A stretch of 64,000 nt of DNA from an uncultured Actinomycetota bacterium (GTDB lineage Bacteria > Actinomycetota > Actinomycetes > Mycobacteriales > CADCTP01), in the NCBI GenBank assembly GCA_963766325.1, contig CAVXZF010000001.1, forward strand, positions 113,447 through 177,446, given 5' to 3'. Position numbers and translations under genes: made by a program. The notes below the pieces were generated by a model that was not told where the DNA came from, searched no databases, and worked only from the letters and a program-made list of their open reading frames with translations. Shown piece after piece: positions 12,477 to 38,454 of this stretch (the first letter of the stretch is position 1; the number at the start of each line of letters is the position of its first letter).

Positions 12477-12524
12477 GCACCGACCCTAACCGGGCGGAGC
12501 CGGGCGCCGTGGATCAGCAGGAGG

Positions 12525-13838
<1,314 letters not shown>

Positions 13839-20516: not shown

Positions 20517-21775
20517 CCGCGCCGGCGCCCCCGCGCCGGCCGCGCCGGGCCGGCACCGGCACGCTCGGCATCTCCGGCTGGGGCGCGGTCAGCTCGGCCG
20601 GCGCCCGCACCGAGGACTTCACCGCGGCCGTGCTCGCCGGCCCGGCCGGGCCGGCCCACGTGGACGGGCTGTTCGACGAGGCGCTGCCGGGCGACGAGGC
20701 GTACGCGCTGCTCGACTTCGCGGTGCCCGACCACCTCGGCCGGGAGAACACCGCCGGCGGTGCCGGCGCTGCCGGCTTCGCCGGCGTCGACCGGGCCACC
20801 GCGCTCGCCCTGGTCGCCTGCGGGCAGGCGCTGGCCGACAGCGACCTGACCGTGGACGACGGCAACCGGCACCGGGTCGGGGTGGTGCTCGGCACCACGC
20901 TGGGCAGCCTGCGCTCGGCCAGCGACTGCAGCCGGCAGACGCTGGTGCGGGAGCGGCCGTACCTGGTCGACCCGCAGCTGTTCGCCAACACCGGGCTGCA
21001 CCGGGCGGCCGGCCGGGCCGCCGGCTGGTTCGGCCTCACCGGGGTCAACGCCACCGTGGCGGGCGCCCAGCTGGCCGGGCTGGCCGCGCTGCGCTACGCC
21101 GGCAGCCAGCTGCGCCGCGGGCACGCCGACGCGCTGCTGGCCGGCGGGGTGGAGGAGCTCAGCCCGCACGCGGCCTGGGTGGCCGAGCACACCTTCCGGG
21201 GCGAGGAGCACCGGGTGCCGGTGGGGGAGGGCGCCGGCGTCTTCGTCGTCGAGGACGCCGCCGCGATGCGGGCCGCCGGCCGCCGGCCCCAGGCGGAGGT
21301 GCTCGCGGTCGAGATCGGGCAGTACGCCCCGCCGGGCGGCGACCCGGACCCGGCCACCGGGCTGGCCCGGTGCATCACCGACGCGCTGGCCACCGCCGGC
21401 GTCGCGCCGGCCGACGTGTGGGCGGTGGCGACGGGGGAGAGCGGCGTACGGGCGCTGGACCTGGTGGAGCAGGAGGCGGTCGACCGGGTGGTCCGGCACG
21501 CCCGCTGCCTGCGGGTGAAGGAGACGGTCGGGGACGGGCCGGCCGCGGCCGCCTCGCTGCAGCTGGCCGGGCTGCTCGCCCACCACCGGGCCGCGCCGGT
21601 CCTGGACGGCCGGGTCTCGCTGGTCACGTCCTGCTCGCCGGACGGCGCGGTCGGCGTCGCGGTGGTCCGCGCCTGGTCCCGGCCCGCGGCCGAGCGGGCC
21701 CCGGCCGAGCAGTCCCCGGCCGGCCACTCCCCGGCCGGGGCGTGGCCGGCCGGGGCCTGGCCGCGGCCTGGCTAG
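20513..21775 (+). CDS. KS-beta / chain-length-factor-like ketosynthase partner (no active-site Cys)
   Basis: KS fold, but the Cys position reads NATVAGAQLAG (Gln in place of Cys, as in CLFs). 4-nt overlap with the KS-alpha gene. Pro/Ala-rich C-terminal tail. Confidence 0.75.
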   Translation: MTAPAPPRRPRRAGTGTLGISGWGAVSSAGARTEDFTAAVLAGPAGPAHVDGLFDEALPGDEAYALLDFAVPDHLGRENTAGGAGAAGFAGVDRATALALVACGQALADSDLTVDDGNRHRVGVVLGTTLGSLRSASDCSRQTLVRERPYLVDPQLFANTGLHRAAGRAAGWFGLTGVNATVAGAQLAGLAALRYAGSQLRRGHADALLAGGVEELSPHAAWVAEHTFRGEEHRVPVGEGAGVFVVEDAAAMRAAGRRPQAEVLAVEIGQYAPPGGDPDPATGLARCITDALATAGVAPADVWAVATGESGVRALDLVEQEAVDRVVRHARCLRVKETVGDGPAAAASLQLAGLLAHHRAAPVLDGRVSLVTSCSPDGAVGVAVVRAWSRPAAERAPAEQSPAGHSPAGAWPAGAWPRPG

Positions 21776-22851
21776 CCGCCGCCGGCCCGGACCAGCCCGC
21801 CGGCGGCGAAGACCGCCTCCACCTCGGGGTCGTCCAGCGCGCCCAGCTGGGCGAAGTAGCGGACCATCTGCCGGGTGGTGGACCAGGTGTAGTCGCGGAC
21901 CAGGTCGGCCGGGAACACCTCGGCCACCACCTGCTCGCCCTCGTCCCGGCTGAGCCCGGCGGCGAGCAGGTCGTCGCCGACCGCGGCCGCGTCCGGCCGC
22001 AGGAAGCAGTCGACCAGCGCCGGCACCAGCAGCGCGGCGGCCCGCCGGTCGCCCGGGTCGAGCTGGCCCCACAGCTGGCGGAGGAACAGCGCGAAGTAGC
22101 GGTGGTGCCGGCCCTCGTCGGCGAGGTGGTCGCGCAGCACCTCGCGCACCGCGGCGGCCACCCCGGGGTCGTCGGGCACCTCGGCCAGCGTGGCCGAGAT
22201 CAGCGTCTCCGAGATGATCACGAACATCAGGTCGACCAGCGGTCGGGTCCGCTCGTCGGCCGCCGCCCGGACCCCGGCCAGCCGGCGCAGGAAGAACGGC
22301 TCCGGCGGCAGCGCCGGCCGGACCCCGGTCGCCTCCCGGACCTGGATGATCAGGTCGGCGGAGAAGAGCGCGTGGTACGCCTCGTCGCAGTAGATCTTGT
22401 ACGCGTCCAGCCGCATCGCCTCGGGCAGCTGCAGCCCGAGCGTGTCGTGTGCGATGCCGAGCACGGTCCGGTTGACCACCACGTGTTCGAGCCGGGCAGT
22501 GAAATCGAGATATCGGTAGAGGTGCTGCACGAGCAATGTCCGGAACCGGTCCGCCGGCAATGCGCGCACCAGCGGGTGCCGGGCGACCGGGACGAGGTCG
22601 GGGGAGAAGAAGTGCGGCGCCGGGTCGTCCGGGGCGAGCATCCGGCGCGGTTGGGAGCGGACGGTGGACTTCTCGTACCAGGACCGGAACGGGCTGCGGT
22701 AGTCGCCACCAGCCATGTCGGCCTCGGCAGCCAGCGCGTCGGTCAACTCCCGGCGCGGGCAGACCGCCGCCGCGGGGCACCCGATGAACATACCGATCGT
22801 GCCGCACATGCGGGCGATCAACTCCATCCGGACACAGGGCTCCCCAACCAT
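21772..22851 (-). CDS. AurF-like (p-aminobenzoate N-oxygenase family) di-iron oxygenase
   Basis: Carboxylate/His ligand blocks YCDEAYHALF, ISETLISATL and ADEGRHHRYF. An alternative start is ATG at 22716 (MAGGDYRSPFRSWYEKS). The stop overlaps the convergent CLF stop in a CTAG. Confidence 0.75.
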   Translation of the reverse strand: MVGEPCVRMELIARMCGTIGMFIGCPAAAVCPRRELTDALAAEADMAGGDYRSPFRSWYEKSTVRSQPRRMLAPDDPAPHFFSPDLVPVARHPLVRALPADRFRTLLVQHLYRYLDFTARLEHVVVNRTVLGIAHDTLGLQLPEAMRLDAYKIYCDEAYHALFSADLIIQVREATGVRPALPPEPFFLRRLAGVRAAADERTRPLVDLMFVIISETLISATLAEVPDDPGVAAAVREVLRDHLADEGRHHRYFALFLRQLWGQLDPGDRRAAALLVPALVDCFLRPDAAAVGDDLLAAGLSRDEGEQVVAEVFPADLVRDYTWSTTRQMVRYFAQLGALDDPEVEAVFAAGGLVRAGGG

Positions 22852-23054
22852 ACCTGCGGGTCACGAATCGTGCGATGTGAGGGTGGAGCGCCATGATCGG
22901 AAGAAGCGGTTCGAACAGGGAGGGTTGACTTGTCGTCGCCCAATCCTCTAGAAAAATCGTGCGTCGGCGCTATCTGGCGGGCCACGACGGTGCCTCCGGA
23001 CGTCCGGGGTCTCCGTCACCACACCCGTCTCGCGACGAGCAGCAGGGAAGGCTG

Positions 23055-23132
23055 GTGAGCCAGATGCGCAAGTACAGCAAGCCTGTCGTCAAGACGGTGG
23101 AGAAGGGCACGATCTTCGCGGCCGCCGCGTAG
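23055..23132 (+). CDS. Candidate ribosomal precursor/scaffold peptide: (VSQ)MRKYSKPVVKTVEKGTIFAAAA
   Basis: Not in the ORF track because it is shorter than 60 aa. GGGAAGG lies upstream. Alternative start is ATG at 23064. 24 of 25 codons end in G/C. The in-frame upstream extension to GTG 22959 has 10 of 32 A/T-ending codons. It has a YxxP leader-like motif. It lies 126 bp upstream of an AsnB homologue carrying an RRE, on the same strand. Confidence 0.45.
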   Translation: MSQMRKYSKPVVKTVEKGTIFAAAA

Positions 23133-23258
23133 CTCGGCCCGCGGCGGGGCCGTGCTCGCCCCAGGCGGCACGGCTCCGCCGTTCCCGACCCGGCTCCGCC
23201 GGTCTGTCGTCACCCGGCCGGTCCCGACCGCCCGGCCCCGGCGAGGAGGGGTGCCCTG

Positions 23259-25490
23259 GTGTGTGGCTTGGCCGGTCTGGCGCGACTGCACGGGGCGCCC
23301 CTGGAGGAGTCGGCGGACGCCGTGCTGGCCGGGATGGCCCGCGCGGTGGCCCACCGCGGCCCGGACGAGACCGTGGTGCGGCGGGACGGCCCGGTCGGGC
23401 TCGCCTTCACCCGGCTGTCCCTGGTCGACCCCGAGGGCGGCGGCCAGCCGCTGGAGAGCGCGGACGGCAGCGCGGTGCTGATCGCCAACGGCGAGGTCTA
23501 CAACCACCGCGCGCTCGCGGCCACCCTGCCGCCGGACGTGCGGCTGCGCACCGGCTCCGACTGCGAGGTGCTGGTCCATCTCTACCGCGAGCGCGGCCTG
23601 CGCTTCTTCGACGACGTGCACGGCATGGTGTCGATCGTCATCTGGGACAGGCGGGAGCAGCGGCTGCTGCTGGTCCGGGACCGGTTCGCGATCAAGCCGC
23701 TCTACTGGGCCCGGATCGGCGACCGGATCGCGTTCAGCTCGGAGATGAAGGCGCTGCTCGGCGTCCCCGGTTGCCCGCGCGCGCTGGACTGGGGCCTGGC
23801 CCTGTCCGACCAGGCGCTGACCAGCGAGGCGGTGACCGAGCCGGGCCGGCCGACCAGCTGGTTCACCGGGATCGAGCAGGTGCCGGCCGGCACCATCGTC
23901 GACATCGACCTGCGCACCGGCGAGGCCCGCGAGCACCGCTACTGGTCGCTCGACATCGGCGGCGCCGGCAGTGACGGTGCGGCGGCGCCCTCCGACGAGG
24001 AGTACGTCCGCCGCTACGCCGAGCTGCTCGACGAGTCGGTCCGCGACTGCCTGATGGCCGACGTGGAGATCGGCCTGTTCCTCTCCGGCGGGGTCGACTC
24101 GGCCGCGGTCGCCGCGCTCGCCGCCCGGGCCGGGGCCAACCTGCACACCTTCACCGCGCTGTCCGGCGCGACCGCGCTCAACGGCGACGCCGAGCACGCC
24201 CACCTGGCCGCCGGCCAGCTCGGCCTGCCCAACCACCAGGTCCTCTTCGACGCCCGGCGGGTGCCGTCGGTGACCGAGTGGGAGCGGCTGCTCTGGCTCA
24301 CCGAGATGCCGCAGTGCGGTCCCGAGCAGTTCTACAAGTTCGAGCTGCACCGGTACGCCAAGGCGGTCCGGCCCGGGGTCAAGGCGATGCTGCTGGGCGC
24401 CGCCGCGGACGAGTACGCCGGCGGCTACACCGAGCTGATGGCGCTCGGCGGCGGCTGGCCCGGCTTCCTGGAGGTCGCCGGCCGGCTGGCCCGGACCCGG
24501 GCGCTGCGCCGCCGGCCGGGGCTCGCCACCTGGTGGGACGGGTCCCAGCCGGCGCTGCTCACCGACGCCGTGGTGGACGCCTTCGCCGAGCCGCCCGGGG
24601 ACCCGTACGCGGCCTTCGTGCGCTGGAAGGCCCGCGACATCGTGCAGTACAACTGCTGGCACGAGGACCGCACCGCCGGCGGCAACGGCATCGAGGCCCG
24701 GGTGCCGTTCCTGGACCACCGGCTGGTCGAGCTGGCCGCCTCCGTGCCGCCGGAGCGGCGCGAGCGGCTGCTGTGGGACAAGCGGATGGTCCGGGAGGCG
24801 GTCCGCGACGTGCTGCCGCCGGTGCTCGCCGAGCGGGAGAAGGTGCCGTTCTTCCACGGCGAGGGCGTGCGCTACGCGCACCGCACCTTCATCGCCATGC
24901 TGGCCCAGGACGGCGCCGAGCTGGTCGAGCGGGCCTGCGCCTCGCCCAACGGGCAGCGCTTCCTCGACCGCGGCGCGATGCTGGGCCACCTCGCCGACCT
25001 GCAGCGCGACCCGGCCGCCGGGCACGTCGAGACGCTGCTCCGGCTGGTCAACCTGGGCCTGCTGGACGCGATGCTCACCGACCTGCCGGCGCCCCCGGTG
25101 ACCACCGAGTTCGCGACCGTCCCGCAGGCCCGGCCGGTCACCGACTGGGCCGCCGAGCGAGCCGAGATCCTCGAGCTGACGCTGCCGCGGCGGCCGGTCG
25201 GCCCGGCCGACGTGCCCCGGCTCGCCGACGGCGTCGAGCTGCTCGCGCCGCTGGCCGAGGAGACCGGCGAGATCGTCTACGTCGCCGTGAACGGCCAGAT
25301 CGAGTACGTGGTGGCTGCCGCCGAGGACCCGGCCTGGCTGCGCTTCCTGCGCGGCGTGGACGGCCGCCGGTCGGTCGCCAAGCTGCTCGCCGACTCCGGC
25401 GACGAGCTCGCCGACGTCCGCGACGTGCTGCTGGACGCGGTGGAGTACGGCATCCTCGACCTGGCCGACCCGGCACCGGCGGAGGGCTGA
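23259..25490 (+). CDS. Asparagine synthetase (glutamine-hydrolysing) homologue with a C-terminal PqqD-like RiPP recognition element (RRE)
   Basis: GTG-Cys2 (MCGLAG) is the N-terminal nucleophile. Also present are RLSLVDPEGGGQP, NGEVYNH, SDCEV and the PP-loop LSGGVDSA. About 120 extra C-terminal aa (VPRLADGVELLAP..IVYVAVNGQIEYVV..AWLRFLRGVDGRRSVAKLLA..ELADVRDVLLDAVEYGILDL) fit the 3-strand plus 3-helix PqqD/RRE pattern. RBS is GAGGAGGGG. Confidence 0.85.
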   Translation: MCGLAGLARLHGAPLEESADAVLAGMARAVAHRGPDETVVRRDGPVGLAFTRLSLVDPEGGGQPLESADGSAVLIANGEVYNHRALAATLPPDVRLRTGSDCEVLVHLYRERGLRFFDDVHGMVSIVIWDRREQRLLLVRDRFAIKPLYWARIGDRIAFSSEMKALLGVPGCPRALDWGLALSDQALTSEAVTEPGRPTSWFTGIEQVPAGTIVDIDLRTGEAREHRYWSLDIGGAGSDGAAAPSDEEYVRRYAELLDESVRDCLMADVEIGLFLSGGVDSAAVAALAARAGANLHTFTALSGATALNGDAEHAHLAAGQLGLPNHQVLFDARRVPSVTEWERLLWLTEMPQCGPEQFYKFELHRYAKAVRPGVKAMLLGAAADEYAGGYTELMALGGGWPGFLEVAGRLARTRALRRRPGLATWWDGSQPALLTDAVVDAFAEPPGDPYAAFVRWKARDIVQYNCWHEDRTAGGNGIEARVPFLDHRLVELAASVPPERRERLLWDKRMVREAVRDVLPPVLAEREKVPFFHGEGVRYAHRTFIAMLAQDGAELVERACASPNGQRFLDRGAMLGHLADLQRDPAAGHVETLLRLVNLGLLDAMLTDLPAPPVTTEFATVPQARPVTDWAAERAEILELTLPRRPVGPADVPRLADGVELLAPLAEETGEIVYVAVNGQIEYVVAAAEDPAWLRFLRGVDGRRSVAKLLADSGDELADVRDVLLDAVEYGILDLADPAPAEG

Positions 25491-25491
25491 C

Positions 25492-26289
25492 ATGGGGATG
25501 GACACCTCGACCGCGGTCGCCGAGCTCACCGCGGCCGGCCTGCTGCCGGCCGAGCGGCACGCGGTGCTGGTGGTCGGCTCGGTCGCCTGGGGCTGGGACA
25601 CCCCGACCAGCGACCTCGACCTGTGCGTGGTCGCCCCGCGGCAGTGGCCGGGCGGGCCGGACGGCCCGACCAACCCGGTCAGCTCGCTGCCGGTGCTGCT
25701 GGAGCCGGACGACATCAAGGTCGAGGTGACCAAGGTCGCCGGCCGCCCCTGCCAGCTGAAGTACTGGACCGACGCCCAGGTCACCCAGACCCTGGGCAAG
25801 GTCGGCTGGGACGCGTTCGAGTCCGGTGCGCTGACCCAGGGCGTGCTCAGCGCCGAGGAGTACGCGCTGCTCCAGATCCTGCCCCGGGCCATCCCGCTGG
25901 AGGGCGCGGACTGGCTGCGGGTGGCGCAGGAGCGGCTGCACGCCTCGGCCGCCCGGGCGATGGCCTGCCAGCGGCTGCTGGCGTTCTCCGACGGGCTCGC
26001 CGAGGACGCGGCCGGTCACATCCGGGCCGGCGACACCGACAGCGCGGTGCTCACCGCCTGGCTGGCGTACGGGCGGGCGGTCGACGCGGTGATGGCCAGC
26101 CACGGCGAGCTGGCCGACAACCCGAAGTGGCGGGCCCGCCGGGTCCGCGAGATGGCCGTGCCGGAGCTGCCGTACGCGGACTTCTGGGCGGTGACCACGA
26201 TGCGCGACCTGGACCCGGACGATCCGGTGCGGTGGGTCACCCGGACCGTCCGGGCCTGCCAGCAGCTGGCCGCGCGGGTCGACTTCTAG
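25492..26289 (+). CDS. Pol-beta-superfamily nucleotidyltransferase-domain protein with a helical C-terminal domain
   Basis: GSVAWGWDTPTSDLDLCVV (G[SG]...D.D NTase motif). It starts 1 nt after the AsnB-RRE stop. Confidence 0.65.
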   Translation: MGMDTSTAVAELTAAGLLPAERHAVLVVGSVAWGWDTPTSDLDLCVVAPRQWPGGPDGPTNPVSSLPVLLEPDDIKVEVTKVAGRPCQLKYWTDAQVTQTLGKVGWDAFESGALTQGVLSAEEYALLQILPRAIPLEGADWLRVAQERLHASAARAMACQRLLAFSDGLAEDAAGHIRAGDTDSAVLTAWLAYGRAVDAVMASHGELADNPKWRARRVREMAVPELPYADFWAVTTMRDLDPDDPVRWVTRTVRACQQLAARVDF

Positions 26290-26290
26290 G

Positions 26291-26345
26291 CCGTGTCTCG
26301 ACCCGCTGGCGGCGCGGGCCGAGAGACACGCCTAGGGTGTGTCTG
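26291..26345. terminator. Imperfect inverted repeat (CGTGTCTCG ... CGAGAGACACG) followed by a CCTAGG-centred palindrome AGACACGCCTAGGGTGTGTCT, between convergent genes
   Basis: Read directly from the sequence. It contains a third copy of the 14-mer CTAGGGTGTGTCTG also seen at 6219 and 6277 (reverse complement). Confidence 0.4.
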
Positions 26346-27318
26346 GGCGAGGGCTGCCGGCCGGGCCGGCGCCGGCCCGCCAGTCGGCCGCCCGGACCGA
26401 GCCGATCGCCTTGCCGATCCCGGGCACGTCGGAGTTGATGAAGCAGGCGCCCAGCAGGGCCAGGTCCCACTCGTCGAGCTTGACCCCGGTGTCGGCGACG
26501 GCCGCGGCGAACGGCGCCCAGGCGATCGGCCCGCCGGCCCGCATCCGGTCCAGGTCGGTCCGCAGCCGGTCCGCGGCCGGTCCGGTCCGGCGCTCGTCCG
26601 GCAGCGCGGCCAGCGCGTCGGCGGCCCGCTCCACGGCGGCGGCGGCGTCCATGTCCCGGACCACCCGGCGGTCGGCCTCCAGCGCCTCGTCCAGCAGCGC
26701 CCGGTCGGCGGCCGGCAGCGGCGCCCGGTCCCGCAGCGCGGCCAGCACCCGGGCCCGCGGCGCGGGCTCCAGCAGGATGCCCAGCTCGCGGACGAGGTCG
26801 ACCGGCTCGTCGGCGACGTGCACGTAGCTGAACACCTTGGCCGGCTGGCCCAGCCGGGCGCGCAGGCAGCCCGGCCACTGGTCGGCGACGTCGGCCGGGC
26901 CCTTGAGCCCGGCCAGCCGCACGGTGGCCGGCACGTCGCCGGGGTCGTCGTGCCGCAGCGCCAGCAACAGCGCCGGCCGGCGCAGGATCAGGTCGTTGAC
27001 CGCCAGCCGGTCCCAGCTGGCCGGGGTGAGCTGGTAGCGCCACAGCTCCCGCCAGGTGAAGCGGGTCAGCACCGGCCGCTCGACCGCGAGCACGGTGAAG
27101 CCCTCGTCGGCCAGGAAGCCGTGCACGGTGCCGAGCTTGCCGGCGGCCAGCCCGTCCGGCTTCATCATCAGCGTCGCGCCGTGCCACAGCACCCCGGCGG
27201 CGTCGTCGCCGAGCACCTCGTGCGTGCTGCGCAGCGACTCCCGGAAGTAGACCTCGTCGCGGTAGTGCTCGGCCTTCTCCGCCGAGCGGGTGAGCGCGGA
27301 CCAGTCCAGGGTGGCGAT
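26332..27318 (-). CDS. Nucleoside-diphosphate-kinase-fold protein with a roughly 150-aa helical C-terminal domain (paralogue 1)
   Basis: C-terminal part of track ORF 26332..28119. NDK-like blocks LMMKPDGLAAGKLGTVHGFLADEGFTV and SYVHVADEPVDLVRELGILL (His in the NDK phospho-His context). It is a paralogue of 29639..30619. No canonical start follows the strong RBS GGAGAGGAG (ATC 27318, CTG 27309), so the start is uncertain. Confidence 0.6.
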   Translation of the reverse strand: MATLDWSALTRSAEKAEHYRDEVYFRESLRSTHEVLGDDAAGVLWHGATLMMKPDGLAAGKLGTVHGFLADEGFTVLAVERPVLTRFTWRELWRYQLTPASWDRLAVNDLILRRPALLLALRHDDPGDVPATVRLAGLKGPADVADQWPGCLRARLGQPAKVFSYVHVADEPVDLVRELGILLEPAPRARVLAALRDRAPLPAADRALLDEALEADRRVVRDMDAAAAVERAADALAALPDERRTGPAADRLRTDLDRMRAGGPIAWAPFAAAVADTGVKLDEWDLALLGACFINSDVPGIGKAIGSVRAADWRAGAGPAGSPRPDTP

Positions 27319-27332
27319 GACGGCTCCTCTCC

Positions 27333-28397
27333 TCAGGGCCCGCCGACGCGGGCGATCACGGCCTCGACGAAGACGCCGGTGGGCACCCCGCGGCCGGCCT
27401 CCAGGCCGCCGGGCCGCAGGTCGGAGGTGAGCGCGCGGCCCTCGGCCAGCACGCCCTCGACCGCGGCCCGGACCCGGGCGGCCGGCCCGGCCAGCCCGAG
27501 GTGGGCCAGAAGCAGCGCCCCGGACAGGATCATCGCGGTCGGGTTGAGCACGCCCCGCCCGGCCCAGGCCGGCGCCGAGCCGTGGGTGGCCTCGAAGACC
27601 GCGCAGCCGGGGCCGAGGTTGGCGCCCGGGGCCACGCCCAGCCCGCCGACGGTGGCGGCGGCGACGTCGGAGGCGATGTCGCCGTACAGGTTTTGCAGGA
27701 GCAGCACGCCGGACAGCCCGCCGCGGGCCACCGCCGCGAGCGCGTCGGCCAGCCCGAGCTCGGCGTACGGCACCTCGGGCACCTCCGCGGCGGCGGCTCG
27801 GGCGGCGGCCAGGAACAGCCCGTCGGTCTCCGGGTAGAGCTGGGGGAGCGCGGCCGCGGTCACCGGCCCGCCGCCGGCCGCCGCCGTGGCGAAGGCGTGC
27901 CGGGCCACCCGCAGCGAGCCGGCCCAGGAGATCGCCTTGACCGAGACCTCGCGGCCCTCCTCGAGGCCGAGCCGGGCGGCCAGCTCGGCGTGCCCGGGCT
28001 CGCCCGGCCCGCTCTCCCAGCCGGCGTAGATGTCCTCGGTGTTCTCCCGGACCACGGTGAGGTCGACGCCCGGGCGCACCGCGGGCACCCCGGGCAGCGC
28101 GCGGGCCGGCCGCACGCACGCGTAGAGGTCGAGGGCCTGCCGGAGCCGGATGTTCACGCTGCGGTGGCCGCTGCCGGCCTGGGTGGTGGTCGGGCCCTTG
28201 AGCGCGGCGCCGACCCGGCGGACCGCCTCGACGGTCGCGTCGGGCAGCGCGGTGCCCAGCCGGGCCGCGGTGCCGGCCCCGGCCTCGGCCGGCACCCAGC
28301 GCAGCGCGCCGCCGGTCGCGGCGTCGAGCACCTGCCGGGCCGCGGCCACCAGCTCGGGACCGCTGTCGTCGCCGGGGATGACCACCGCTTCGACCAC
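27333..28397 (-). CDS. Isocitrate/isopropylmalate dehydrogenase family enzyme (FrbB-like)
   Basis: VVIPGDDSGPELV, VVRENTEDIYAG, NLYGDIASD and ATHGSAP. Internal GTG at 28397 of track ORF 27333..30545. Confidence 0.8.
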   Translation of the reverse strand: MVEAVVIPGDDSGPELVAAARQVLDAATGGALRWVPAEAGAGTAARLGTALPDATVEAVRRVGAALKGPTTTQAGSGHRSVNIRLRQALDLYACVRPARALPGVPAVRPGVDLTVVRENTEDIYAGWESGPGEPGHAELAARLGLEEGREVSVKAISWAGSLRVARHAFATAAAGGGPVTAAALPQLYPETDGLFLAAARAAAAEVPEVPYAELGLADALAAVARGGLSGVLLLQNLYGDIASDVAAATVGGLGVAPGANLGPGCAVFEATHGSAPAWAGRGVLNPTAMILSGALLLAHLGLAGPAARVRAAVEGVLAEGRALTSDLRPGGLEAGRGVPTGVFVEAVIARVGGP

Positions 28398-28490: not shown

Positions 28491-29627
28491 ATGGACAGGC
28501 GCAGAGTCGTCATCGTCGGGGCGAGCGGGTCGATCGGCCGGCAGGCACGCGAGGTGGTGGCCCGCTCGGACATCCTCGACGTGGTCGGGCTGGTCGTGCT
28601 GCGCGACACCGGCTCGCTGGTCGAGGCGGTCGCGGAGACCGGCTGCCGCGAGGTCGCGGTGGTCGACGGCGACGCCCGGGCCGCGCTGAGGGCGCCCGAT
28701 GGCGTCACCGTGCACGCCGAGCCGGCCGCGCTGCTCGACGCCGCCCAGCCGGACATCGTGCTCAACGCGGCCGTCGGCTCGGCCGGCCTGTCCTGGACGC
28801 TGGAGACCGCGGCCCGCGGGCTCGACATGGCCCTGGCCAACAAGGAGTCGCTGGTCGCCGGCGGTCCGGTGGTGGCCCGGATCCTGCGCGAGTCCGGGTG
28901 CAAGGTGGTGCCGGTCGACTCCGAGCACTCCGCGCTGCACCAGCTGCTGGAGTTCAGCCGGCACGCGCGGACGCTGACCATCACCGCGTCCGGCGGCCCG
29001 TTCCGCGGTCGGGCCTGGGCCGACCTGGCCGAGGTGACCGTCGAGGCCGCGCTCAAGCACCCCAACTGGTCGATGGGCCGCAAGAACACGATCGACTCGG
29101 CCACCCTGGTCAACAAGGGCCTGGAGATGATCGAGGCCCGCTACCTCTTCGACTGGCCGGCCGACGACATCGAGGTGGCGGTGCAGGCCCAGTCGGTGCT
29201 GCACGCCGCGGTGACGCTGACCGACGGCACCCTGATCGCCACCCTGTCGCCGCCGGACATGCGGCGCAGCATCTCGTACGCGCTGCACCACCCGGACAGC
29301 GTGGACATCGGGCTGCCGCCGGCCAGGGTGGCCGACCTCGGGCCGCTGGCGTTCGAGCCGGTGCCGACCGACTTTCCCGGGGTGCCGCTGGCCCGGGAGG
29401 CGATGCGGCTGGAGGACCGCGGCGGCACGGCGGCGTACAACGCGGCCAACGAGGTGGCGGTCGAGGCGTTCCTCGGCGGCGCGCTGCGCTTCACCGAGAT
29501 CGTCGAGGTGATCGAGGCCGCCCTGGACCGGCTGCCGGACGCGCCGGTGACCACGGTGGACGAGGTGCTGGCGCTGGACGCCGAGGTGCGCGCGGTGGCC
29601 CGGCAGCGGGTCGGCGGGGTGCGCTGA
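28491..29627 (+). CDS. dxr: 1-deoxy-D-xylulose-5-phosphate reductoisomerase homologue located inside the phosphonate cluster (probable self-resistance copy, DxrB-like)
   Basis: VGASGSIGRQA, LANKESLV, PVDSEHSALHQ and HPNWSMGRKNTIDSATLVNKGLEMIEA. ATG at 28491. Confidence 0.9.
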   Translation: MDRRRVVIVGASGSIGRQAREVVARSDILDVVGLVVLRDTGSLVEAVAETGCREVAVVDGDARAALRAPDGVTVHAEPAALLDAAQPDIVLNAAVGSAGLSWTLETAARGLDMALANKESLVAGGPVVARILRESGCKVVPVDSEHSALHQLLEFSRHARTLTITASGGPFRGRAWADLAEVTVEAALKHPNWSMGRKNTIDSATLVNKGLEMIEARYLFDWPADDIEVAVQAQSVLHAAVTLTDGTLIATLSPPDMRRSISYALHHPDSVDIGLPPARVADLGPLAFEPVPTDFPGVPLAREAMRLEDRGGTAAYNAANEVAVEAFLGGALRFTEIVEVIEAALDRLPDAPVTTVDEVLALDAEVRAVARQRVGGVR

Positions 29628-29638
29628 CCGGAGGCCGG

Positions 29639-30619
29639 TCACGCCTCCAGCCAGGCCTGCAGGGTCGGCGTCGGCAGCAGGTCCGGCGCCTCCAGCCGCT
29701 CCATCACCATCAGCTCGGCGGCGACCGACAGCACGTCCCACAGGACGGCGGGCACGGTCACGTCCAGCGGGGCGGCGAGCTCGCGGATCCGCATCCAGTC
29801 CAGCCGGGCGCCGGCCGCCAGCTCCGCCTCGAGCGCGGCGGCGACGGCCGCCCCGCCGGGCCGGGCCGCCAGCCGGCCCAGCGCCGCGTGCGGGTCCAGG
29901 TCGTGCGGCGGGTGCGCCGCCTCCAGCCGCTCGATCCGCTCCGCCAGCCGGAGGTCGGCCGGTCGCAGGCCGGCCGCCTCGGCCAGCAGCCGGCGGCGCT
30001 CGTCCCGGTCGAAGAAGACGGCCAGCTCGCGGACGACGTCGGCCGGCTCGTCCGCGGCGTGCACGAACGTGAACAGCCCGCTGACCGACCGCAGCGTGGA
30101 CCGCAGCGTGCCGGCCGGCCGGCTGGCCGCGTCGTAGCCGCCCTTGAGGTTGCTGAGCCGGACCGACGCCGGCACCGGCCCGGGCGGCGCCGTGAACAGG
30201 ACCACGAGCATGTCGGTGGCGGCGAAGAGCAGGGTGCACAGGTCGAGGCGGTCCACCCGCATGCGGTTCCAGTTCCACCGCCACAGCGCGCGCATGCCGT
30301 GCCGGTCGAGCCGGACGTTGCCGGCCGCGACCGGGACGAAGCCCTGCGCGGCGGCGAAGTCGAGCGCGGCCGCGATGCGCCGGCCGACCACCGCGTCCGG
30401 CTTGAAGCTGAGCAGGGCCAGCGACTGCAGCACCTCCACCGCGCGGTCGCCGTGCAGCGCCCGCAGGTCCCACCAGCTCTCGCGGAAGTCCAGGTCCTCC
30501 CGGTAGTCCCGGCGCTTGCGGGGCAGCACGGTCAACCGGCGCCACTCCCGGTCGTCCGGCAGCGGGTCCGGCGGTCGGCGGTCCCGCTCCCGGCCGGGGA
30601 CGGTGATCTGCGCGGTCAT
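29639..30619 (-). CDS. Nucleoside-diphosphate-kinase-fold protein with a helical C-terminal domain (paralogue 2)
   Basis: LLSFKPDAVVGRRIAAALDFAAAQGFV and FTFVHAADEPADVVRELAVFF. It aligns by eye along its length with 26332..27318. It starts 4 nt after the TauD-like gene stop. Confidence 0.6.
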   Translation of the reverse strand: MTAQITVPGRERDRRPPDPLPDDREWRRLTVLPRKRRDYREDLDFRESWWDLRALHGDRAVEVLQSLALLSFKPDAVVGRRIAAALDFAAAQGFVPVAAGNVRLDRHGMRALWRWNWNRMRVDRLDLCTLLFAATDMLVVLFTAPPGPVPASVRLSNLKGGYDAASRPAGTLRSTLRSVSGLFTFVHAADEPADVVRELAVFFDRDERRRLLAEAAGLRPADLRLAERIERLEAAHPPHDLDPHAALGRLAARPGGAAVAAALEAELAAGARLDWMRIRELAAPLDVTVPAVLWDVLSVAAELMVMERLEAPDLLPTPTLQAWLEA

Positions 30620-30623
30620 CGGC

Positions 30624-31646
30624 TCAGCCGGCGACCTTCGCGGCGTCGCCGACCAGCTCCATGCCCCAGCGGTGGGTGGACATGAAGGTCGGGAACTGCC
30701 GCGCGTCGTGCACGTTGATCCACATCCGGAGCAGGTGCCGGCGGGACTCCTCGGGGACGTCGCCGTGCTCGTACGCCGAGCGCCGGTGCACGGTCACGTT
30801 GTCGTCGACCAGCTGCAGGTCGCCGGGCTCCAGCCGCATCGAGACGTGGCTCTCCTCCCGCGCCGGCACCTCCTCGAAGGCGTCCAGCGCCTCCCGCTGC
30901 ACCGGGGTCAGGGTCAGCCCCATCCGCTCCGGCCCGGACTCGGCGAACTGGCGCAGGAAGTACCGGCAGATGACCTCGCCGTTGTAATAGCCGAAGACGG
31001 CGTTCGGGTACGCCGGCGGCTCGCCCGGCGGCTCCTCGCCGCGGTAGTCGTACAGGAAGCCGGCGTAGTAGACGCCGAGCAGCTCCCGCTTGGTGCGCAG
31101 GATCTCGTTGTAGATGTGGTGCGCGCTGGCCACCGAGAAGACGCCGCCCGCCTCGGCCTGGCGCAGGCACAGCAGCGCGGCGAGGTCCGGCGCGTCGCTG
31201 TGGTAGGGCAGCGACTCGTTGGTCTGGTAGCCGCGGACGGTCTTGCTGGCCTTGATGGCGACGCCGCGGTCCTTGATCGAGACGATCCGATCGCCGCGGC
31301 CGTTCTGCCGCACGCCGACGCCGAGGTGGGTGCCGAGCGCCCAGGCGACCGCCTGCGCCTCGGCCAGCTGCAGCCCCTCGATCGGCACCCCCTTGAGCAG
31401 CGCCAGCCCGCGGCCGTGCTCCAGCTGGTCGACGATCCGCTTGATCAGCGGCCCGACCAGCGGCAGGTCGACGTCGTCGCGGGACGCGAGGGCGACGGTG
31501 CCGTGCTCGGTCAGCTTCTCGGCGGCCCGGGTGACCTCGGCCCGCATCGGCCCGGTCAGCTCGTACGTCCACCCGGCGGGATCCTCGACATCCTCCCGGC
31601 GCCACACTGACGGGCCGGTGATCGGCTCCGTCCGGATGCTGGTCAT
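30624..31646 (-). CDS. TauD/TfdA-family Fe(II)/2-oxoglutarate dioxygenase (FrbJ-like)
   Basis: LPYHSD (HxD facial-triad context) and ...VTVHRRSAY. ATGA overlap with the aconitase gene. Confidence 0.75.
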   Translation of the reverse strand: MTSIRTEPITGPSVWRREDVEDPAGWTYELTGPMRAEVTRAAEKLTEHGTVALASRDDVDLPLVGPLIKRIVDQLEHGRGLALLKGVPIEGLQLAEAQAVAWALGTHLGVGVRQNGRGDRIVSIKDRGVAIKASKTVRGYQTNESLPYHSDAPDLAALLCLRQAEAGGVFSVASAHHIYNEILRTKRELLGVYYAGFLYDYRGEEPPGEPPAYPNAVFGYYNGEVICRYFLRQFAESGPERMGLTLTPVQREALDAFEEVPAREESHVSMRLEPGDLQLVDDNVTVHRRSAYEHGDVPEESRRHLLRMWINVHDARQFPTFMSTHRWGMELVGDAAKVAG

Positions 31647-34231: not shown

Positions 34232-34275
34232 CCGCCCCCTCCATACCCGAGGGCGTGACGCCCTAGTGTCCGGAT

Positions 34276-38451: not shown

Positions 38452-38454
38452 GAG

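What the first reader, a model, noticed from the sequence alone, without database searches (positions are those of the whole stretch)
22950..26289. Leader-only peptide ending in AAAA, AsnB homologue with fused RRE, and nucleotidyltransferase inside a phosphonate cluster: candidate scaffold-peptide (RiPP-like)-phosphonate hybrid system
What the sequence shows:
- An unannotated short ORF (23055/23064..23132) encodes (VSQ)MRKYSKPVVKTVEKGTIFAAAA. GC3 switches sharply exactly at this ORF: 24/25 G/C-ending codons, against 22/32 in the in-frame upstream stretch.
- The peptide has a YxxP(x)V motif like the RRE-bound YxxPxL of lasso-type leaders. It has almost no core, just a C-terminal Ala4.
- A small hairpin (GCCGTGC...GCACGGC, 23149-23174) follows it. 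Hairpins in this position are often seen after RiPP precursor genes.
- 126 bp downstream on the same strand is a 743-aa asparagine synthetase homologue. It keeps the Cys2 glutaminase nucleophile and the SGGVDSA PP-loop. It carries about 120 extra C-terminal residues that fit a PqqD-like RiPP recognition element.
- A Pol-beta NTase gene starts 1 nt after its stop.

Inference:
- A carboxylate-adenylating amidotransferase that can dock a leader peptide suggests chemistry at the peptide C-terminus. That could be amidation, or ligation of an amine such as an aminophosphonate made by the neighbouring genes. This would be analogous in logic, not in enzymology, to scaffold-peptide (pearlin-type) pathways.
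- An Ala-Ala-X(phosphonate) fragment released by proteolysis would resemble Trojan-horse phosphonopeptides.
- Alternatively, the NTase-fold protein could transfer a phosphonyl group from the CMP-phosphonate intermediates (FrbH-like product) to a peptide hydroxyl (Y4, S5, T11 or T16).

I know of no described pathway with this gene combination.
Basis: partly seen in the sequence, partly recalled or inferred. Interest (0 to 1): 0.9.

Follow-up and report, generated by a model that had tools for sequence, protein, structure and literature searches.

The report
Scaffold-peptide cassette beside a phosphonate cluster
A real 22-residue peptide gene, an asparagine-synthetase-like enzyme with a built-in peptide-docking domain and a nucleotidyltransferase form a fosfazinomycin-type cassette (described in a September 2026 preprint), here joined to an FR-900098-type phosphonate pathway, so the cluster may build a peptide-masked version of that antimalarial-class compound.

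Summary
Every sequence observation checks out. The 22-codon ORF (23064-23132) is a genuine gene. Same-length homologues with invariant Y4, K6 and P7 lie about 85-130 bp upstream of the same AsnB family in more than 12 other loci, each followed by a strong hairpin. The 743-aa AsnB keeps Cys2 and the PP-loop. It is 51% identical to FzmA, and its C-terminus models as a winged-helix RRE. The next gene has an ANT(4')-type nucleotidyltransferase fold.

The combination is no longer undescribed. A preprint of 24 Sep 2026 (PMC13622209) shows that FzmA derivatises the C-terminus of the 22-mer FzmZ and that the nucleotidyltransferase FzmU then attaches an activated phosphonate. One of my fetched loci is that very cluster.

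The window carries a different variant:
- The partner pathway is FR-900098-type (PepM, FrbA/B/C/F/H/J-like genes, in-cluster Dxr).
- There is an AurF-like oxygenase instead of hydrazine genes.
- There are two NDK-like paralogues.
- There is no discrete RRE and no MFS exporter.

The same cassette-plus-frb arrangement recurs in two related metagenomic contigs. One lacks the neighbouring polyketide genes.

Two caveats apply. The nucleotidyltransferase has Q88 where relatives have E/D and evolves fast. Most family cassettes are not phosphonate-linked.

Verdict: new variant of a known kind.

The parts
21772..22851 (-). AurF-like diiron oxygenase, transcribed divergently from the peptide gene. By comparison with homologues that begin MCGTVGMF, the likely true start is 22809.
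   Evidence: Pfam PF11583, E = 5e-28. It clusters with neighbours of the AsnB family in 12 loci. Two ExxH motifs (DEAYH, DEGRHH) are read directly from the translation. The preprint reports AurF-like genes next to 60% of this AS-like cluster.
22915..22960 (+). Upstream stretch conserved with L081, containing TTGACT, an 18-nt spacer and TAGAAA. It is a possible promoter for the peptide/AsnB operon.
   Evidence: It is nearly identical to L081, whereas the region just upstream of it (about 22876-22910) is clearly more diverged. The consensus scan did not call a promoter here, so this is weak.
23064..23132 (+). FzmZ-type scaffold (precursor) peptide gene: MRKYSKPVVKTVEKGTIFAAAA, 22 aa, with a YxxP docking motif and a C-terminal Ala.
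   Evidence: There are 14 homologous 22-codon genes in the same position. Y4, K6 and P7 are invariant. FzmZ itself (L004) is MKVYVKPEAKKVDQGTIVAAVR.
23141..23182 (+). GC-rich stem-loop directly after the peptide stop codon, with no U-tract. It is probably an attenuator or a transcript-stability element.
   Evidence: z = -3.8; conserved in L081 with z = -4.7. An equivalent 11-18 bp hairpin follows the precursor gene in 10 of 10 other loci examined.
23259..25490 (+). FzmA-family asparagine-synthetase-like enzyme, 743 aa. It has a Cys2 glutaminase domain, a PP-loop synthetase domain and a fused C-terminal RRE.
   Evidence: It is 51% identical to FzmA of Streptomyces sp. NRRL F-2747. It differs at only 5 of 130 positions that are invariant in the other family members, four of them conservative (P232D is not).
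25206..25472 (+). RRE-like winged-helix domain within the AsnB homologue (residues about 650-738).
   Evidence: AF2 model: pLDDT 87.7, strands 48-51, 55-58, 68-73 and 76-82, then three helices. Foldseek hits include TruD/LynD, the PbtF RRE, ThcOx, MccB and TbtB, but all at E >= 4e-3. G679, D701 and G702 are invariant. The preprint describes the family as RRE-fused.
25492..26289 (+). Pol-beta/ANT-type nucleotidyltransferase, 265 aa, the presumed FzmU counterpart. It carries Q88 where relatives have E/D.
   Evidence: It accompanies the AsnB family in 10 of 15 full-length genome loci and also in L081, L082 and L086.
26332..27324 (-). NDK-like protein 1, 330 aa, with the catalytic-type His retained in YVHVADEP.
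   Evidence: Pfam NDK, E = 7e-7; PDB NDK matches. Homologues are found near or inside other cassettes.
29639..30619 (-). NDK-like protein 2, 326 aa, a paralogue of NDK-like 1 (37% identity), embedded among the phosphonate genes.
   Evidence: Its counterpart is the second NDK-like gene in L083 (40% identity).
27333..28397 (-). Isocitrate/isopropylmalate dehydrogenase (FrbB-like).
28491..29627 (+). DXP reductoisomerase encoded in the cluster, the target or self-resistance copy expected for a fosmidomycin/FR-900098-class product.
30624..36185 (-). TauD-type dioxygenase (FrbJ-like, 30624-31646), aconitase (FrbA-like, 31643-34231) and homocitrate-synthase-like enzyme (FrbC-like, 35055-36185). A 261-aa IDH-related gene lies on the + strand at 34276-35061.
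36341..40260 (+). N-acetyltransferase (FrbF-like, 36341-37165), a 428-aa two-Rossmann flavoprotein (FrbG-like, 37165-38451) and a nucleotidyltransferase/PLP-enzyme fusion (FrbH-like, 38455-40260).
   Evidence: GxGxxG motifs are read from the translation.
40257..41117 (-). PEP mutase.
   Evidence: PF13714, E = 1e-51.

Best explanation
The locus is a fosfazinomycin-type scaffold-peptide cassette working with the adjacent FR-900098-type phosphonate pathway.

Proposed sequence of events:
1. The 22-residue peptide is made ribosomally. Its N-terminal YxxP region docks on the winged-helix RRE fused to the C-terminus of the AsnB homologue.
2. That enzyme adenylates the peptide's C-terminal Ala carboxylate with ATP. 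It replaces AMP with a small nitrogen nucleophile released in its Cys2 glutaminase domain. The nucleophile is ammonia from Gln, or hydroxylamine or hydrazine from a gamma-glutamyl donor. The product is a peptide C-terminal amide, hydroxamate or hydrazide.
3. The AurF-like diiron oxygenase probably supplies or creates an N-O function. No hydrazine-forming genes are present.
4. The ANT-fold nucleotidyltransferase joins an activated form of the phosphonate to this new nucleophile. The activated form would be a phosphonate diphosphate made with the two NDK-like proteins, or the CMP-phosphonate made by the FrbH-like enzyme.
5. Cellular aminopeptidases trim the scaffold. This leaves an Ala-linked, peptide-permease-importable pro-drug of a DXP-reductoisomerase inhibitor.

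Shown here:
- The peptide gene is real and conserved.
- The enzyme belongs to the FzmA family.
- The C-terminal domain has an RRE-like fold and the downstream protein has a nucleotidyltransferase fold.
- The cassette composition and its synteny with frb-type genes.

Shown elsewhere for homologues: the chemistry of FzmA, FzmZ and FzmU.

Inferred for this locus:
- The identity of the nucleophile.
- The role of the AurF-like protein.
- The role of the NDK-like proteins.
- Coupling to the phosphonate.
- The final product.
For: - Precursor family: 14 genes of exactly 22 codons in the same position, with invariant Y4/K6/P7 and synonymous variation at P7.
- AsnB: 51% identity to FzmA over 740 residues. 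The Gln-site and PP-loop residues are invariant. TIGR01536 is passed.
- RRE: AF2 model and Foldseek matches, plus the preprint's description of this SSN cluster.
- Nucleotidyltransferase: GS...DxD signature and ANT(4') fold.
- Cassette partners: the nucleotidyltransferase, AurF-like gene, PqqD and MFS recur around the family. This matches the preprint's co-occurrence figures of 62%, 60%, 79% and 54%.
- Demonstrated chemistry in homologues: FzmA/FzmZ/FzmU, including FzmA's use of Gln and Glu-NHOH.
- Linkage to the phosphonate genes:
  - The nucleotidyltransferase stop lies 42 bp from NDK-like 1, and the frb-like genes follow.
  - The second NDK-like paralogue lies between Dxr and the TauD gene.
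  - NDK-like genes belong to stand-alone cassettes elsewhere (L086, L083), so cassette-type and frb-type genes are interleaved here.
  - The same cassette-plus-frb arrangement is found in L081 (89% AsnB identity).
  - It is also found in a more diverged JGI contig (NDK-like 71% identical) that lacks the KS/CLF genes and still has the discrete PqqD.
- Other FzmA-family/PepM hybrids exist: fzm itself (L002, L004) and L010. The preprint notes such uncharacterised BGCs.
- Selection: AsnB and AurF are under purifying selection between the window and L081 (dN/dS 0.27 and 0.22).
Against: - No experiment bears on this locus.
- The linkage to frb-type genes is seen in only one lineage (window, L081 and the JGI contig). 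It could be inherited adjacency.
- The closest non-syntenic relatives (L082 and L086, 62% identity) and most family members are stand-alone cassettes without phosphonate genes.
- The window lacks the discrete RRE and the MFS exporter that usually follow the nucleotidyltransferase.
- The nucleotidyltransferase has Q88 where every other member examined outside its own sub-clade has E or D. That position is on the strand expected to carry a catalytic carboxylate. Its dN/dS against L081 is 0.67.
- No homologue of the ATP-grasp kinase FzmF lies in the phosphonate part. The one ATP-grasp match in the window is a bona fide biotin carboxylase.
- I could not compare the NDK-like proteins with FzmK, or the nucleotidyltransferase with FzmU. 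Those sequences were out of reach.
- No hydrazine-forming genes, no FzmH-like methyltransferase match and no dedicated peptidase were found.
Confidence: 0.55

Rival explanations
1. The cassette is an independent RiPP-like system that merely lies next to the phosphonate cluster. It derivatises the peptide C-terminus (amide or hydroxamate). The nucleotidyltransferase then adds an ordinary nucleotide rather than a phosphonate. After trimming this would give, for example, an aminoacyl-nucleotide mimic. The phosphonate cluster makes free FR-900098-type compounds on its own.
For: - Most family cassettes, including the closest non-syntenic ones, have no phosphonate genes.
- ANT-type enzymes normally transfer NMP.
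- NDK-like genes accompany non-phosphonate cassettes and other BGCs.
- The frb-like gene set looks self-sufficient for an FR-900098-type product.
Against: - The cassette here has lost the exporter and the discrete RRE that stand-alone versions carry.
- It is interleaved with frb genes through the second NDK-like paralogue.
- The cassette-frb pairing persists in a relative with only 71% NDK-like identity while the other flank differs.
- Three kinds of PepM-linked FzmA-family clusters now exist.
Confidence: 0.3
2. The cassette in this lineage is a decaying remnant. The peptide and AsnB genes may still be expressed, but the pathway is incomplete and makes no finished product.
For: - The discrete PqqD and the MFS are missing.
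- The nucleotidyltransferase has Q88 in place of the conserved acidic residue, shared with its three closest relatives.
- Nucleotidyltransferase dN/dS is 0.67, against 0.22-0.30 for its neighbours.
- A recombinase gene and an apparently inserted ACC/KS block point to recent rearrangement.
Against: - All cassette ORFs are intact with GC3 of about 0.99.
- AsnB and AurF are under purifying selection.
- The peptide ORF, its ribosome-binding site and its upstream region are almost unchanged between the window and L081.
- FzmT, the discrete RRE, was dispensable in vitro in fzm.
- Gln can still ligate a metal, so Q88 need not be inactivating.
Confidence: 0.08
3. Either the AsnB homologue ligates the amine of an aminophosphonate (3-aminopropylphosphonate or 2-amino-4-phosphonobutyrate) directly to the C-terminal Ala. 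Or the nucleotidyltransferase phosphonylates a Tyr, Ser or Thr side chain of the peptide.
For: - Aminophosphonate intermediates are expected from the FrbH-like route (established FR-900098 pathway knowledge).
- Y4 is invariant.
- ANT-type enzymes act on hydroxyl groups.
Against: - The glutaminase nucleophile and Gln-site residues are fully conserved.
- FzmA uses gamma-glutamyl donors of small nucleophiles.
- Y4 belongs to the YxxP docking motif.
- T16 is not conserved and some peptides lack it.
- In fzm the acceptor is the C-terminal hydrazide.
Confidence: 0.05
4. The AsnB homologue serves the neighbouring type II polyketide genes as a small-molecule amidotransferase, or is a lasso cyclase. 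On this view the short ORF is incidental.
For: KS/CLF genes lie 1.5 kb away. AsnB homologues occur in some aromatic polyketide clusters (general knowledge). The YxxP motif resembles lasso leaders.
Against: - The cassette occurs without KS/CLF in the JGI contig and in more than 12 other loci.
- The lasso cyclase model scores 172 bits against a cutoff of 525.
- There is no B-type leader peptidase, no possible macrolactam core, and Cys2 is retained.
- The short ORF is strongly conserved.
Confidence: 0.02

Closest known systems
Fosfazinomycin late-stage assembly: FzmZ (22-mer), FzmA (AS-like with fused RRE), FzmH, FzmF/FzmK (kinases), FzmT (RRE), FzmU (nucleotidyltransferase). bioRxiv 24 Sep 2026, PMC13622209.
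   Same: - A 22-residue YxxP peptide gene lies directly upstream of an AS-like enzyme with Cys2, a PP-loop and a fused RRE (51% identity to FzmA).
- A Pol-beta-type nucleotidyltransferase is present.
- A PepM-based phosphonate pathway is adjacent.
- A hairpin follows the precursor gene.
- No dedicated protease is encoded.
   Different: - The peptide ends in Ala (AAAA), not Val-Arg.
- The phosphonate pathway is FR-900098-type (homocitrate-synthase route, FrbH-like CMP activation, in-cluster Dxr), not Me-HPnA.
- There are no hydrazine-forming genes. An AurF-like oxygenase is present instead.
- No FzmH or FzmI match was found.
- There is no ATP-grasp FzmF counterpart. Two NDK-like paralogues are present instead.
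- The discrete RRE (FzmT) is absent.
- The nucleotidyltransferase carries Q88.
FR-900098 (frb) cluster of Streptomyces rubellomurinus (from established knowledge of the pathway).
   Same: PepM, a homocitrate-synthase-like enzyme, aconitase, IDH-like enzymes, a nucleotidyltransferase/PLP fusion (FrbH-like), an N-acetyltransferase, a flavoprotein, a TauD-type dioxygenase and a Dxr copy are all present.
   Different: - A scaffold-peptide cassette and two NDK-like genes are attached.
- No clear FrbI-type CMP hydrolase lies within the cluster. A metallophosphoesterase lies about 15 kb away at 11577-12476.
- The known frb products are free phosphonates, not peptide conjugates.
Pearlins (scaffold peptides extended by PEARL enzymes, e.g. 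3-thiaglutamate and ammosamide pathways; general knowledge).
   Same: The logic is the same. A small ribosomal peptide serves only as a handle on whose C-terminus a small molecule is built and then cut off.
   Different: The enzymology is unrelated. There is no LanB-like aminoacyl-tRNA ligase. Here an ATP-dependent amidotransferase acts on the carboxylate.
Microcin C (MccA/MccB) peptidyl-nucleotide Trojan horse.
   Same: A short ribosomal peptide is modified at its C-terminus with a phosphorus-containing group by a nucleotide-handling enzyme that bears an RRE-like peptide clamp. The product is activated by peptidase trimming in the target cell. MccB appears among the structural matches of the RRE model.
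   Different: There is no ThiF-like MccB and no C-terminal Asn. Two separate enzymes (AS-like plus Pol-beta nucleotidyltransferase) would do the work.
Lasso peptide cyclases, and the C-terminal amidating or nitrile-forming AS-like enzymes (TsrC; the nitrilobacillin enzyme, PMC13060819).
   Same: They share the asparagine-synthetase fold acting on a ribosomal peptide carboxylate, and RRE-guided recognition of a YxxP-type leader.
   Different: The window protein is not a lasso cyclase (NF033535 scores 172 against a cutoff of 525, and Cys2 is retained). It belongs to a different SSN cluster (cluster 58 of the preprint) with a fused RRE and nucleotidyltransferase/AurF partners.

Membership tests
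FzmA-type AS-like peptide C-terminal derivatising enzymes (SSN cluster 58 of PMC13622209) | Asparagine synthetase B architecture with an N-terminal Cys nucleophile, Gln-site residues and a PP-loop | tested here: met
   The protein starts MCG. R52/L53, N77/G78/E79 and D101 are invariant. SGGVDS lies at 276-281. GATase_7 and Asn_synthase domains are found, and TIGR01536 scores 304 against a cutoff of 267.
FzmA-type AS-like peptide C-terminal derivatising enzymes (SSN cluster 58 of PMC13622209) | More than about 40% identity to FzmA (the SSN threshold used by the authors) | tested here: met
   51% identity over 740 aligned residues to the FzmA gene of Streptomyces sp. NRRL F-2747 in L004.
FzmA-type AS-like peptide C-terminal derivatising enzymes (SSN cluster 58 of PMC13622209) | Fused C-terminal RiPP recognition element | tested here: met
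   The AF2 model of residues 605-743 has pLDDT 87.7 and a winged-helix layout of strands followed by three helices. Foldseek matches include RRE-bearing TruD/LynD, PbtF, ThcOx, MccB and TbtB, but the best E-value is only 4e-3. There is no Pfam PqqD hit. The feature is met on fold, not on sequence statistics.
FzmA-type AS-like peptide C-terminal derivatising enzymes (SSN cluster 58 of PMC13622209) | Adjacent 21/22-mer precursor peptide with an N-terminal YxxP motif | tested here: met
   23064-23132, 22 codons, Y4-S-K-P7. It is homologous to FzmZ and 12 other precursors.
FzmA-type AS-like peptide C-terminal derivatising enzymes (SSN cluster 58 of PMC13622209) | Typical neighbours: nucleotidyltransferase, AurF-like gene, discrete RRE, MFS transporter | tested here: inconclusive
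   The nucleotidyltransferase and the AurF-like gene are present. The discrete PqqD and the MFS are absent from the whole 64 kb. These are frequent, not obligatory, partners (54-79%).
FzmA-type AS-like peptide C-terminal derivatising enzymes (SSN cluster 58 of PMC13622209) | [quoted passage not shown] | not testable with these tools
   This needs an enzyme assay with the synthetic 22-mer.
FzmU-type nucleotidyltransferase | Pol-beta nucleotidyltransferase signature and fold | tested here: met
   G29-S30...S40-D41-x-D43 are invariant. The model has pLDDT 90.9. The fold matches ANT(4')/kanamycin nucleotidyltransferase at E = 2.4e-6 and TM 0.59-0.63.
FzmU-type nucleotidyltransferase | Full set of catalytic carboxylates | tested here: inconclusive
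   Residue 88 is Gln in the window and in P0121-P0123. It is Glu or Asp in the 25 other relatives in which the motif could be located. Its assignment as a catalytic residue rests on strand position and spacing, not on a residue-level structural alignment.
FzmU-type nucleotidyltransferase | Sequence homology to FzmU itself, and pairing with a discrete RRE gene | not tested
   fzmT/fzmU lie outside the 6-kb flanks of L002 and L004, and no further genome scan was available. In other cassettes the homologous nucleotidyltransferase is paired with a PqqD gene. In the window it is not.
FR-900098-type phosphonate pathway | PepM, homocitrate-synthase-like enzyme, aconitase, IDH, FrbH-like fusion, N-acetyltransferase, N-hydroxylase, TauD dioxygenase and a resistant Dxr | tested here: met
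   Pfam domains for all except the hydroxylase. The 428-aa candidate has two GxGxxG-type motifs but no Pfam or PDB match. A CMP-hydrolase (FrbI) counterpart was not identified.
Lasso peptide system | Cyclase matching the lasso model, a B-type leader peptidase, and a core with an N-terminal Gly/Ala/Ser/Cys plus Asp/Glu at position 7-9 | tested here: not met
   NF033535 scores 172 bits against a cutoff of 525. No transglutaminase-like peptidase was found among the Pfam-scanned genes of the window or the conserved gene clusters of the related loci. The peptide has no such core.
Pearlin (PEARL) pathways | LanB-like peptide aminoacyl-tRNA ligase acting on the scaffold peptide | tested here: not met
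   No LanB-type domain appears in any scanned gene of the window. Only the scaffold logic is shared.

The most novel reading that the evidence does not exclude
The cluster makes a peptide-masked ('Trojan horse') FR-900098/fosmidomycin-class DXP-reductoisomerase inhibitor by a second, hydrazine-independent way of joining a phosphonate to a ribosomal scaffold peptide. In this reading:
- The C-terminal Ala is converted to an amide or hydroxamate, with the AurF-like oxygenase providing the N-O group.
- A pair of NDK-like phosphotransferases, or the CMP ester from the FrbH-like enzyme, activates the phosphonate.
- An ANT-fold transferase forms an N-P or O-P bond.

By extension, the many stand-alone cassettes of this family would make aminoacyl-nucleotide-like conjugates whose last residue (Ala, Arg, Val or Thr) is encoded by the peptide gene.
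Probability: 0.3. Interest if true: 0.8.

Novelty: new variant of a known kind. Interest (0 to 1): 0.6.

Why it matters
If the coupling is real, there are three consequences.

1. Scaffold-peptide assembly of phosphonates would not be a peculiarity of fosfazinomycin. It would be a portable module that different phosphonate pathways have recruited.
2. It would predict an unknown natural pro-drug form of an FR-900098-type Dxr inhibitor. Uptake, normally through GlpT-type transporters, limits this compound class. A peptide-permease route would change its spectrum.
3. It would give concrete candidate functions to three protein families that accompany hundreds of actinomycete cassettes and have no assigned role: the AurF-like oxygenases, the 320-aa NDK-like paralogue pairs, and the ANT-fold transferases.

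The AS-like enzyme is also of practical interest as a peptide C-terminal amidation, hydroxamate or hydrazide biocatalyst with a different C-terminal specificity (Ala).

Tried and rejected
- **Pfam PqqD on the C-terminal 130 residues:** no hit. hhalign of the C-terminal profile against a single discrete PqqD was not significant, although it aligned the DG motif. The RRE call therefore rests on the AF2/Foldseek result and on the preprint.
- **Discrete PqqD or MFS in the window:** none found with tblastn or HMMs built from the related loci.
- **FzmT/FzmU in L002 and L004:** not within the 6-kb flanks. No FzmA orthologue was among the 120 listed homologues, so the far end of the fzm cluster could not be fetched. 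FzmK's protein family is not stated in the held text.
- **Consensus promoter/terminator scan of 22700-23400:** nothing called.
- **Profile search of the nucleotidyltransferase against PDB sequences:** only the GS...DxD segment aligned, so Q88 could not be mapped residue by residue.
- **Lasso cyclase membership:** rejected.
- **AsnB as a polyketide amidotransferase:** rejected, because the cassette occurs without KS/CLF.
- **The window's ATP-grasp protein (16690-18150) as an FzmF counterpart:** rejected. It has all three biotin-carboxylase domains and sits with carboxyltransferase genes in the window (14500-16233) and with carboxyltransferase/BCCP genes in L081.
- **FzmB against the window's methyltransferase:** no match.
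- **Papers:** the supplementary files of the preprint are not held. The nitrilobacillin paper says nothing about this cluster. PMC2819980 and PMC13380299 are not held.

Full report
**Setting**

The window has 76.7% G+C. I mapped genes by third-position G+C and by Pfam and NCBIfam scans. The order around the finding is:
- acetyl-CoA carboxylase genes (14500-18150);
- a serine-recombinase-like gene (18183-19307);
- KS/CLF of a type II PKS (19311-21775);
- an AurF-like diiron oxygenase on the minus strand (21772-22851);
- the short ORF (23064-23132);
- the AsnB homologue (23259-25490);
- the nucleotidyltransferase-like gene (25492-26289);
- a phosphonate cluster with an FR-900098-type gene set.

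The phosphonate cluster comprises:
- NDK-like 1 (26332-27324, minus strand);
- an IDH-type dehydrogenase;
- DXP reductoisomerase;
- NDK-like 2 (29639-30619, minus strand);
- a TauD dioxygenase;
- an aconitase;
- a truncated IDH-like gene;
- a homocitrate-synthase-like gene;
- an N-acetyltransferase;
- a 428-aa two-Rossmann flavoprotein;
- an FrbH-like nucleotidyltransferase/PLP fusion;
- PEP mutase (to 41117).

**Checking the observation**

- The ORF reads MRKYSKPVVKTVEKGTIFAAAA from ATG 23064, with GGGAAGG 12 nt upstream.
- G+C at third positions is 24/25 in the ORF against 22/32 upstream.
- The hairpin is longer than described. It spans 23141-23182, and the 71-nt stretch folds at -47.5 kcal/mol with z = -3.8.
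- The AsnB homologue begins MCG, carries SGGVDSA and passes the asparagine-synthase equivalog model.
- The next gene starts 1 nt after its stop and has the GS...SDLDL signature.

**Is the short ORF a gene?**

Yes. A protein search showed that the 743-aa protein belongs to a large actinomycete family of 720-770-aa AsnB homologues. They align end to end, including the C-terminal extension.

I scanned one genome per species with the family-specific C-terminal half. This returned 15 loci with full-length relatives. In 11 of them a 22-codon ORF lies 31-115 bp (in most loci 83-115 bp) upstream of the AsnB gene. The same holds in three contigs fetched through close homologues (L081, L082, L086).

Across 14 such genes:
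- the length is always 22 codons;
- Y4, K6 and P7 are invariant;
- K10 and V12 are kept in 13 of 14;
- P7 uses four different synonymous codons;
- the last four residues vary freely, and the final residue is A, R, V or T.

AAAA is therefore a feature of this lineage only (L081 has AVAA). Between the window and L081 the ORF differs in one codon. Its upstream region is nearly unchanged, whereas the spacer to the AsnB gene has indels. A strong G+C-rich hairpin follows the stop codon in all ten other loci examined. Its position is conserved but its sequence is not.

**The conserved cassette**

I clustered the predicted proteins of these loci. The AsnB family travels with:
- an AurF-like oxygenase (12 loci; this includes the window's 21772-22851 gene);
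- the nucleotidyltransferase-like protein (10 loci);
- a roughly 95-aa PqqD protein (10 loci; Pfam PF05402);
- an MFS or ABC exporter.

The window has no discrete PqqD and no such exporter anywhere in its 64 kb.

**Folds**

Residues 605-743 of the AsnB homologue were modelled with 15 relatives. They give a confident domain (pLDDT 87.7) of four strands, three helices and a terminal strand. Its PDB matches are weak in E-value (4e-3 at best). They include proteins that carry RiPP recognition elements: TruD, LynD, the PbtF RRE bound to peptide, ThcOx, MccB and TbtB.

The downstream protein models at pLDDT 90.9. It matches kanamycin nucleotidyltransferase ANT(4') over its whole length (E = 2.4e-6, TM about 0.6), followed by LinB and AadA.

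**What is known**

[quoted passage not shown] It reports the following.
- An SSN cluster ('cluster 58') of AS-like enzymes has a fused C-terminal RRE.
- Genome neighbourhoods of this cluster hold discrete RREs (79%), nucleotidyltransferases (62%), AurF-like proteins (60%) and MFS transporters (54%).
- Each BGC encodes a 21/22-mer peptide with an N-terminal YxxP motif.
- FzmA, a member of the cluster, puts hydrazine from glutamylhydrazide on the C-terminal Arg carboxylate of the 22-mer FzmZ. It also accepts ammonia from Gln and hydroxylamine from Glu-NHOH.
- FzmH methylates the hydrazide.
- FzmF and FzmK phosphorylate the phosphonate twice.
- The nucleotidyltransferase FzmU joins the phosphonate diphosphate to the peptide hydrazide.
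- The discrete RRE FzmT is dispensable in vitro.
- A general aminopeptidase releases fosfazinomycin B.

My locus L004 is the producer strain named in that paper. Its precursor reads MKVYVKPEAKKVDQGTIVAAVR. Its FzmA is 51% identical to the window protein over 740 residues. The authors also note uncharacterised FzmA homologues in other PepM-containing clusters. I could not check whether this one is among their examples, because no supplementary files are held.

**Does the cassette belong to the phosphonate genes here?**

For coupling:
- The cassette abuts the frb-type genes.
- The two NDK-like paralogues are 37% identical to each other and retain a His in YVHVADEP. They are not part of the classical frb set, as far as I know from the literature. 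Their family does accompany cassettes elsewhere. One lies directly after the MFS gene in L086. An orthologous pair lies about 9.5 kb from the cassette in Streptomyces sp. NPDC029080.
- One of the window's two copies sits between Dxr and the TauD gene, so cassette-type and frb-type genes are interleaved.
- The same arrangement occurs in L081 (AsnB 89% identical).
- It also occurs in a more diverged JGI contig (NDK-like 71% identical). That contig keeps the discrete PqqD, lacks KS/CLF, and has the recombinase gene directly next to AurF. That recombinase is followed by the citrate synthase/metallophosphoesterase/PPTase trio found at 10909-13838 in the window. The cassette therefore travels with the frb genes, not with the polyketide genes, which look inserted.
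- L010 is a further, different cassette-plus-PepM/Ppd/Fe-ADH hybrid.

Against coupling:
- All three copies of the frb-linked arrangement may be one inherited configuration.
- The nearest non-syntenic relatives (L082, L086) are stand-alone cassettes.
- The nucleotidyltransferase carries Q88 where every other member examined outside its own sub-clade has E or D. The residue lies on strand 85-93, the position expected for a catalytic carboxylate. This assignment is an inference. The only support I have is spacing and the existence of AadA E87Q crystal structures among the fold matches.
- Between the window and L081, dN/dS is 0.67 for the nucleotidyltransferase. It is 0.27 for AsnB, 0.22 for AurF and 0.30 for the IDH. 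With third positions at 99% G+C, dS is compressed, so only the relative values mean anything.

**Most likely mechanism**

By homology, the peptide docks through its YxxP region on the fused RRE. The enzyme adenylates the C-terminal Ala carboxylate and replaces AMP with a small nitrogen nucleophile generated at Cys2. The window has no hydrazine-forming genes but does have the AurF-like oxygenase. I therefore favour an amide or a hydroxamate. This is inference.

The ANT-fold enzyme would then attach the phosphonate. In fzm the donor is a phosphonate diphosphate. Here the candidates are a diphosphate made by the NDK-like pair or the CMP-phosphonate made by the FrbH-like enzyme. Both are inferred.

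Trimming by aminopeptidases would leave an Ala-linked conjugate of a Dxr inhibitor. A dedicated M28 aminopeptidase sits next to the cassette in L001/L083 and next to NDK-like and nucleotidyltransferase genes in L088. None is in the window.

My confidence is about 0.9 that this is a FzmZ/FzmA/FzmU-family cassette acting on the peptide C-terminus. It is about 0.55 that it is functionally joined to the phosphonate pathway.

**Rivals**

- An independent cassette that is merely adjacent (0.3).
- A decaying remnant (0.08).
- A polyketide amidotransferase or lasso cyclase (0.02; rejected).

**Novelty and score**

This locus differs in the phosphonate pathway, the probable nucleophile, the probable activating enzymes and the C-terminal residue. 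That makes it a new variant of a known kind. Interest is 0.6.

Noticed in passing
window 25753-25755 (codon 88 of the nucleotidyltransferase gene 25492-26289): Gln replaces the Glu/Asp found in every other family member outside this sub-clade (motif RRW[E/D]hxYW). The change is shared by the three closest metagenomic relatives but not by L081. The gene's dN/dS against L081 is 0.67, compared with 0.22-0.30 for its neighbours.
   Followed up: partly
window 26332-27324 and 29639-30619; L083 10001-12171; L085 2911-3915 and 7528-8448; L086 6566-7465: A family of roughly 300-400-aa NDK-like proteins with a retained His often occurs as paralogue pairs inside biosynthetic clusters. This includes non-phosphonate ones, such as a Bradyrhizobium-type cluster with a truncated class II tRNA-synthetase-like gene, two B12-radical SAM genes and an MccF-like S66 peptidase. 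Their function is unassigned.
   Followed up: partly
window 18183-19307, with 10909-13838: A serine-recombinase-like gene separates the ACC genes from KS/CLF. In a related JGI contig the recombinase lies directly beside the AurF-like gene. It is followed there by the citrate synthase/metallophosphoesterase/PPTase trio that lies about 5 kb further away in the window. The ACC plus KS/CLF block therefore looks like an insertion.
   Followed up: partly
window 22750-22809 (N-terminus of the AurF-like protein): A Cys-rich N-terminal extension, MCGTIGMFIGCPAAAVCP, is shared by the AurF-like proteins of L001, L005, L006 and L011. It is absent from those of L003, L007-L010 and L012.
   Followed up: no
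window 41200-50144: A SAM methyltransferase, a bimodular NRPS (A-T-C-A-T-TE, 1879 aa), an aldehyde-dehydrogenase-like gene and an AMP-binding fragment lie directly beyond PEP mutase on the minus strand. They could be a second, conventional route to a phosphonopeptide, or a separate cluster.
   Followed up: no
L010 3431-12731 (Streptomyces sp. NPDC001093): This is another hybrid of the cassette (nucleotidyltransferase, peptide MQKYSKPTAKTVTQAACLKKVV, AsnB, AurF-like) with PepM, PnPy decarboxylase and an Fe-alcohol dehydrogenase. It is distinct from both fzm and the window.
   Followed up: partly
L001 2299-4143 / L083 1034-2869; L088 316-2166: A 611-616-aa M28 aminopeptidase is encoded next to the cassette in Streptomyces sp. 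NPDC029080, and next to NDK-like and nucleotidyltransferase genes in L088. It is a candidate dedicated scaffold-trimming peptidase. None is present in the window.
   Followed up: partly
L009 2288-2356 and 2949-3017; L012 2484-3245 and 11603-12355: Some cassettes carry two precursor genes (L009) or two nucleotidyltransferase genes (L012). Two family members (P0011, P0117) have a second, Pfam-recognisable PqqD domain fused after the C-terminal RRE.
   Followed up: no
window 37165-38451: The 428-aa protein in the FrbG position has two GxGxxG-type dinucleotide-binding motifs. It has no Pfam match at E <= 0.1 and no PDB sequence match at E <= 1.
   Followed up: partly
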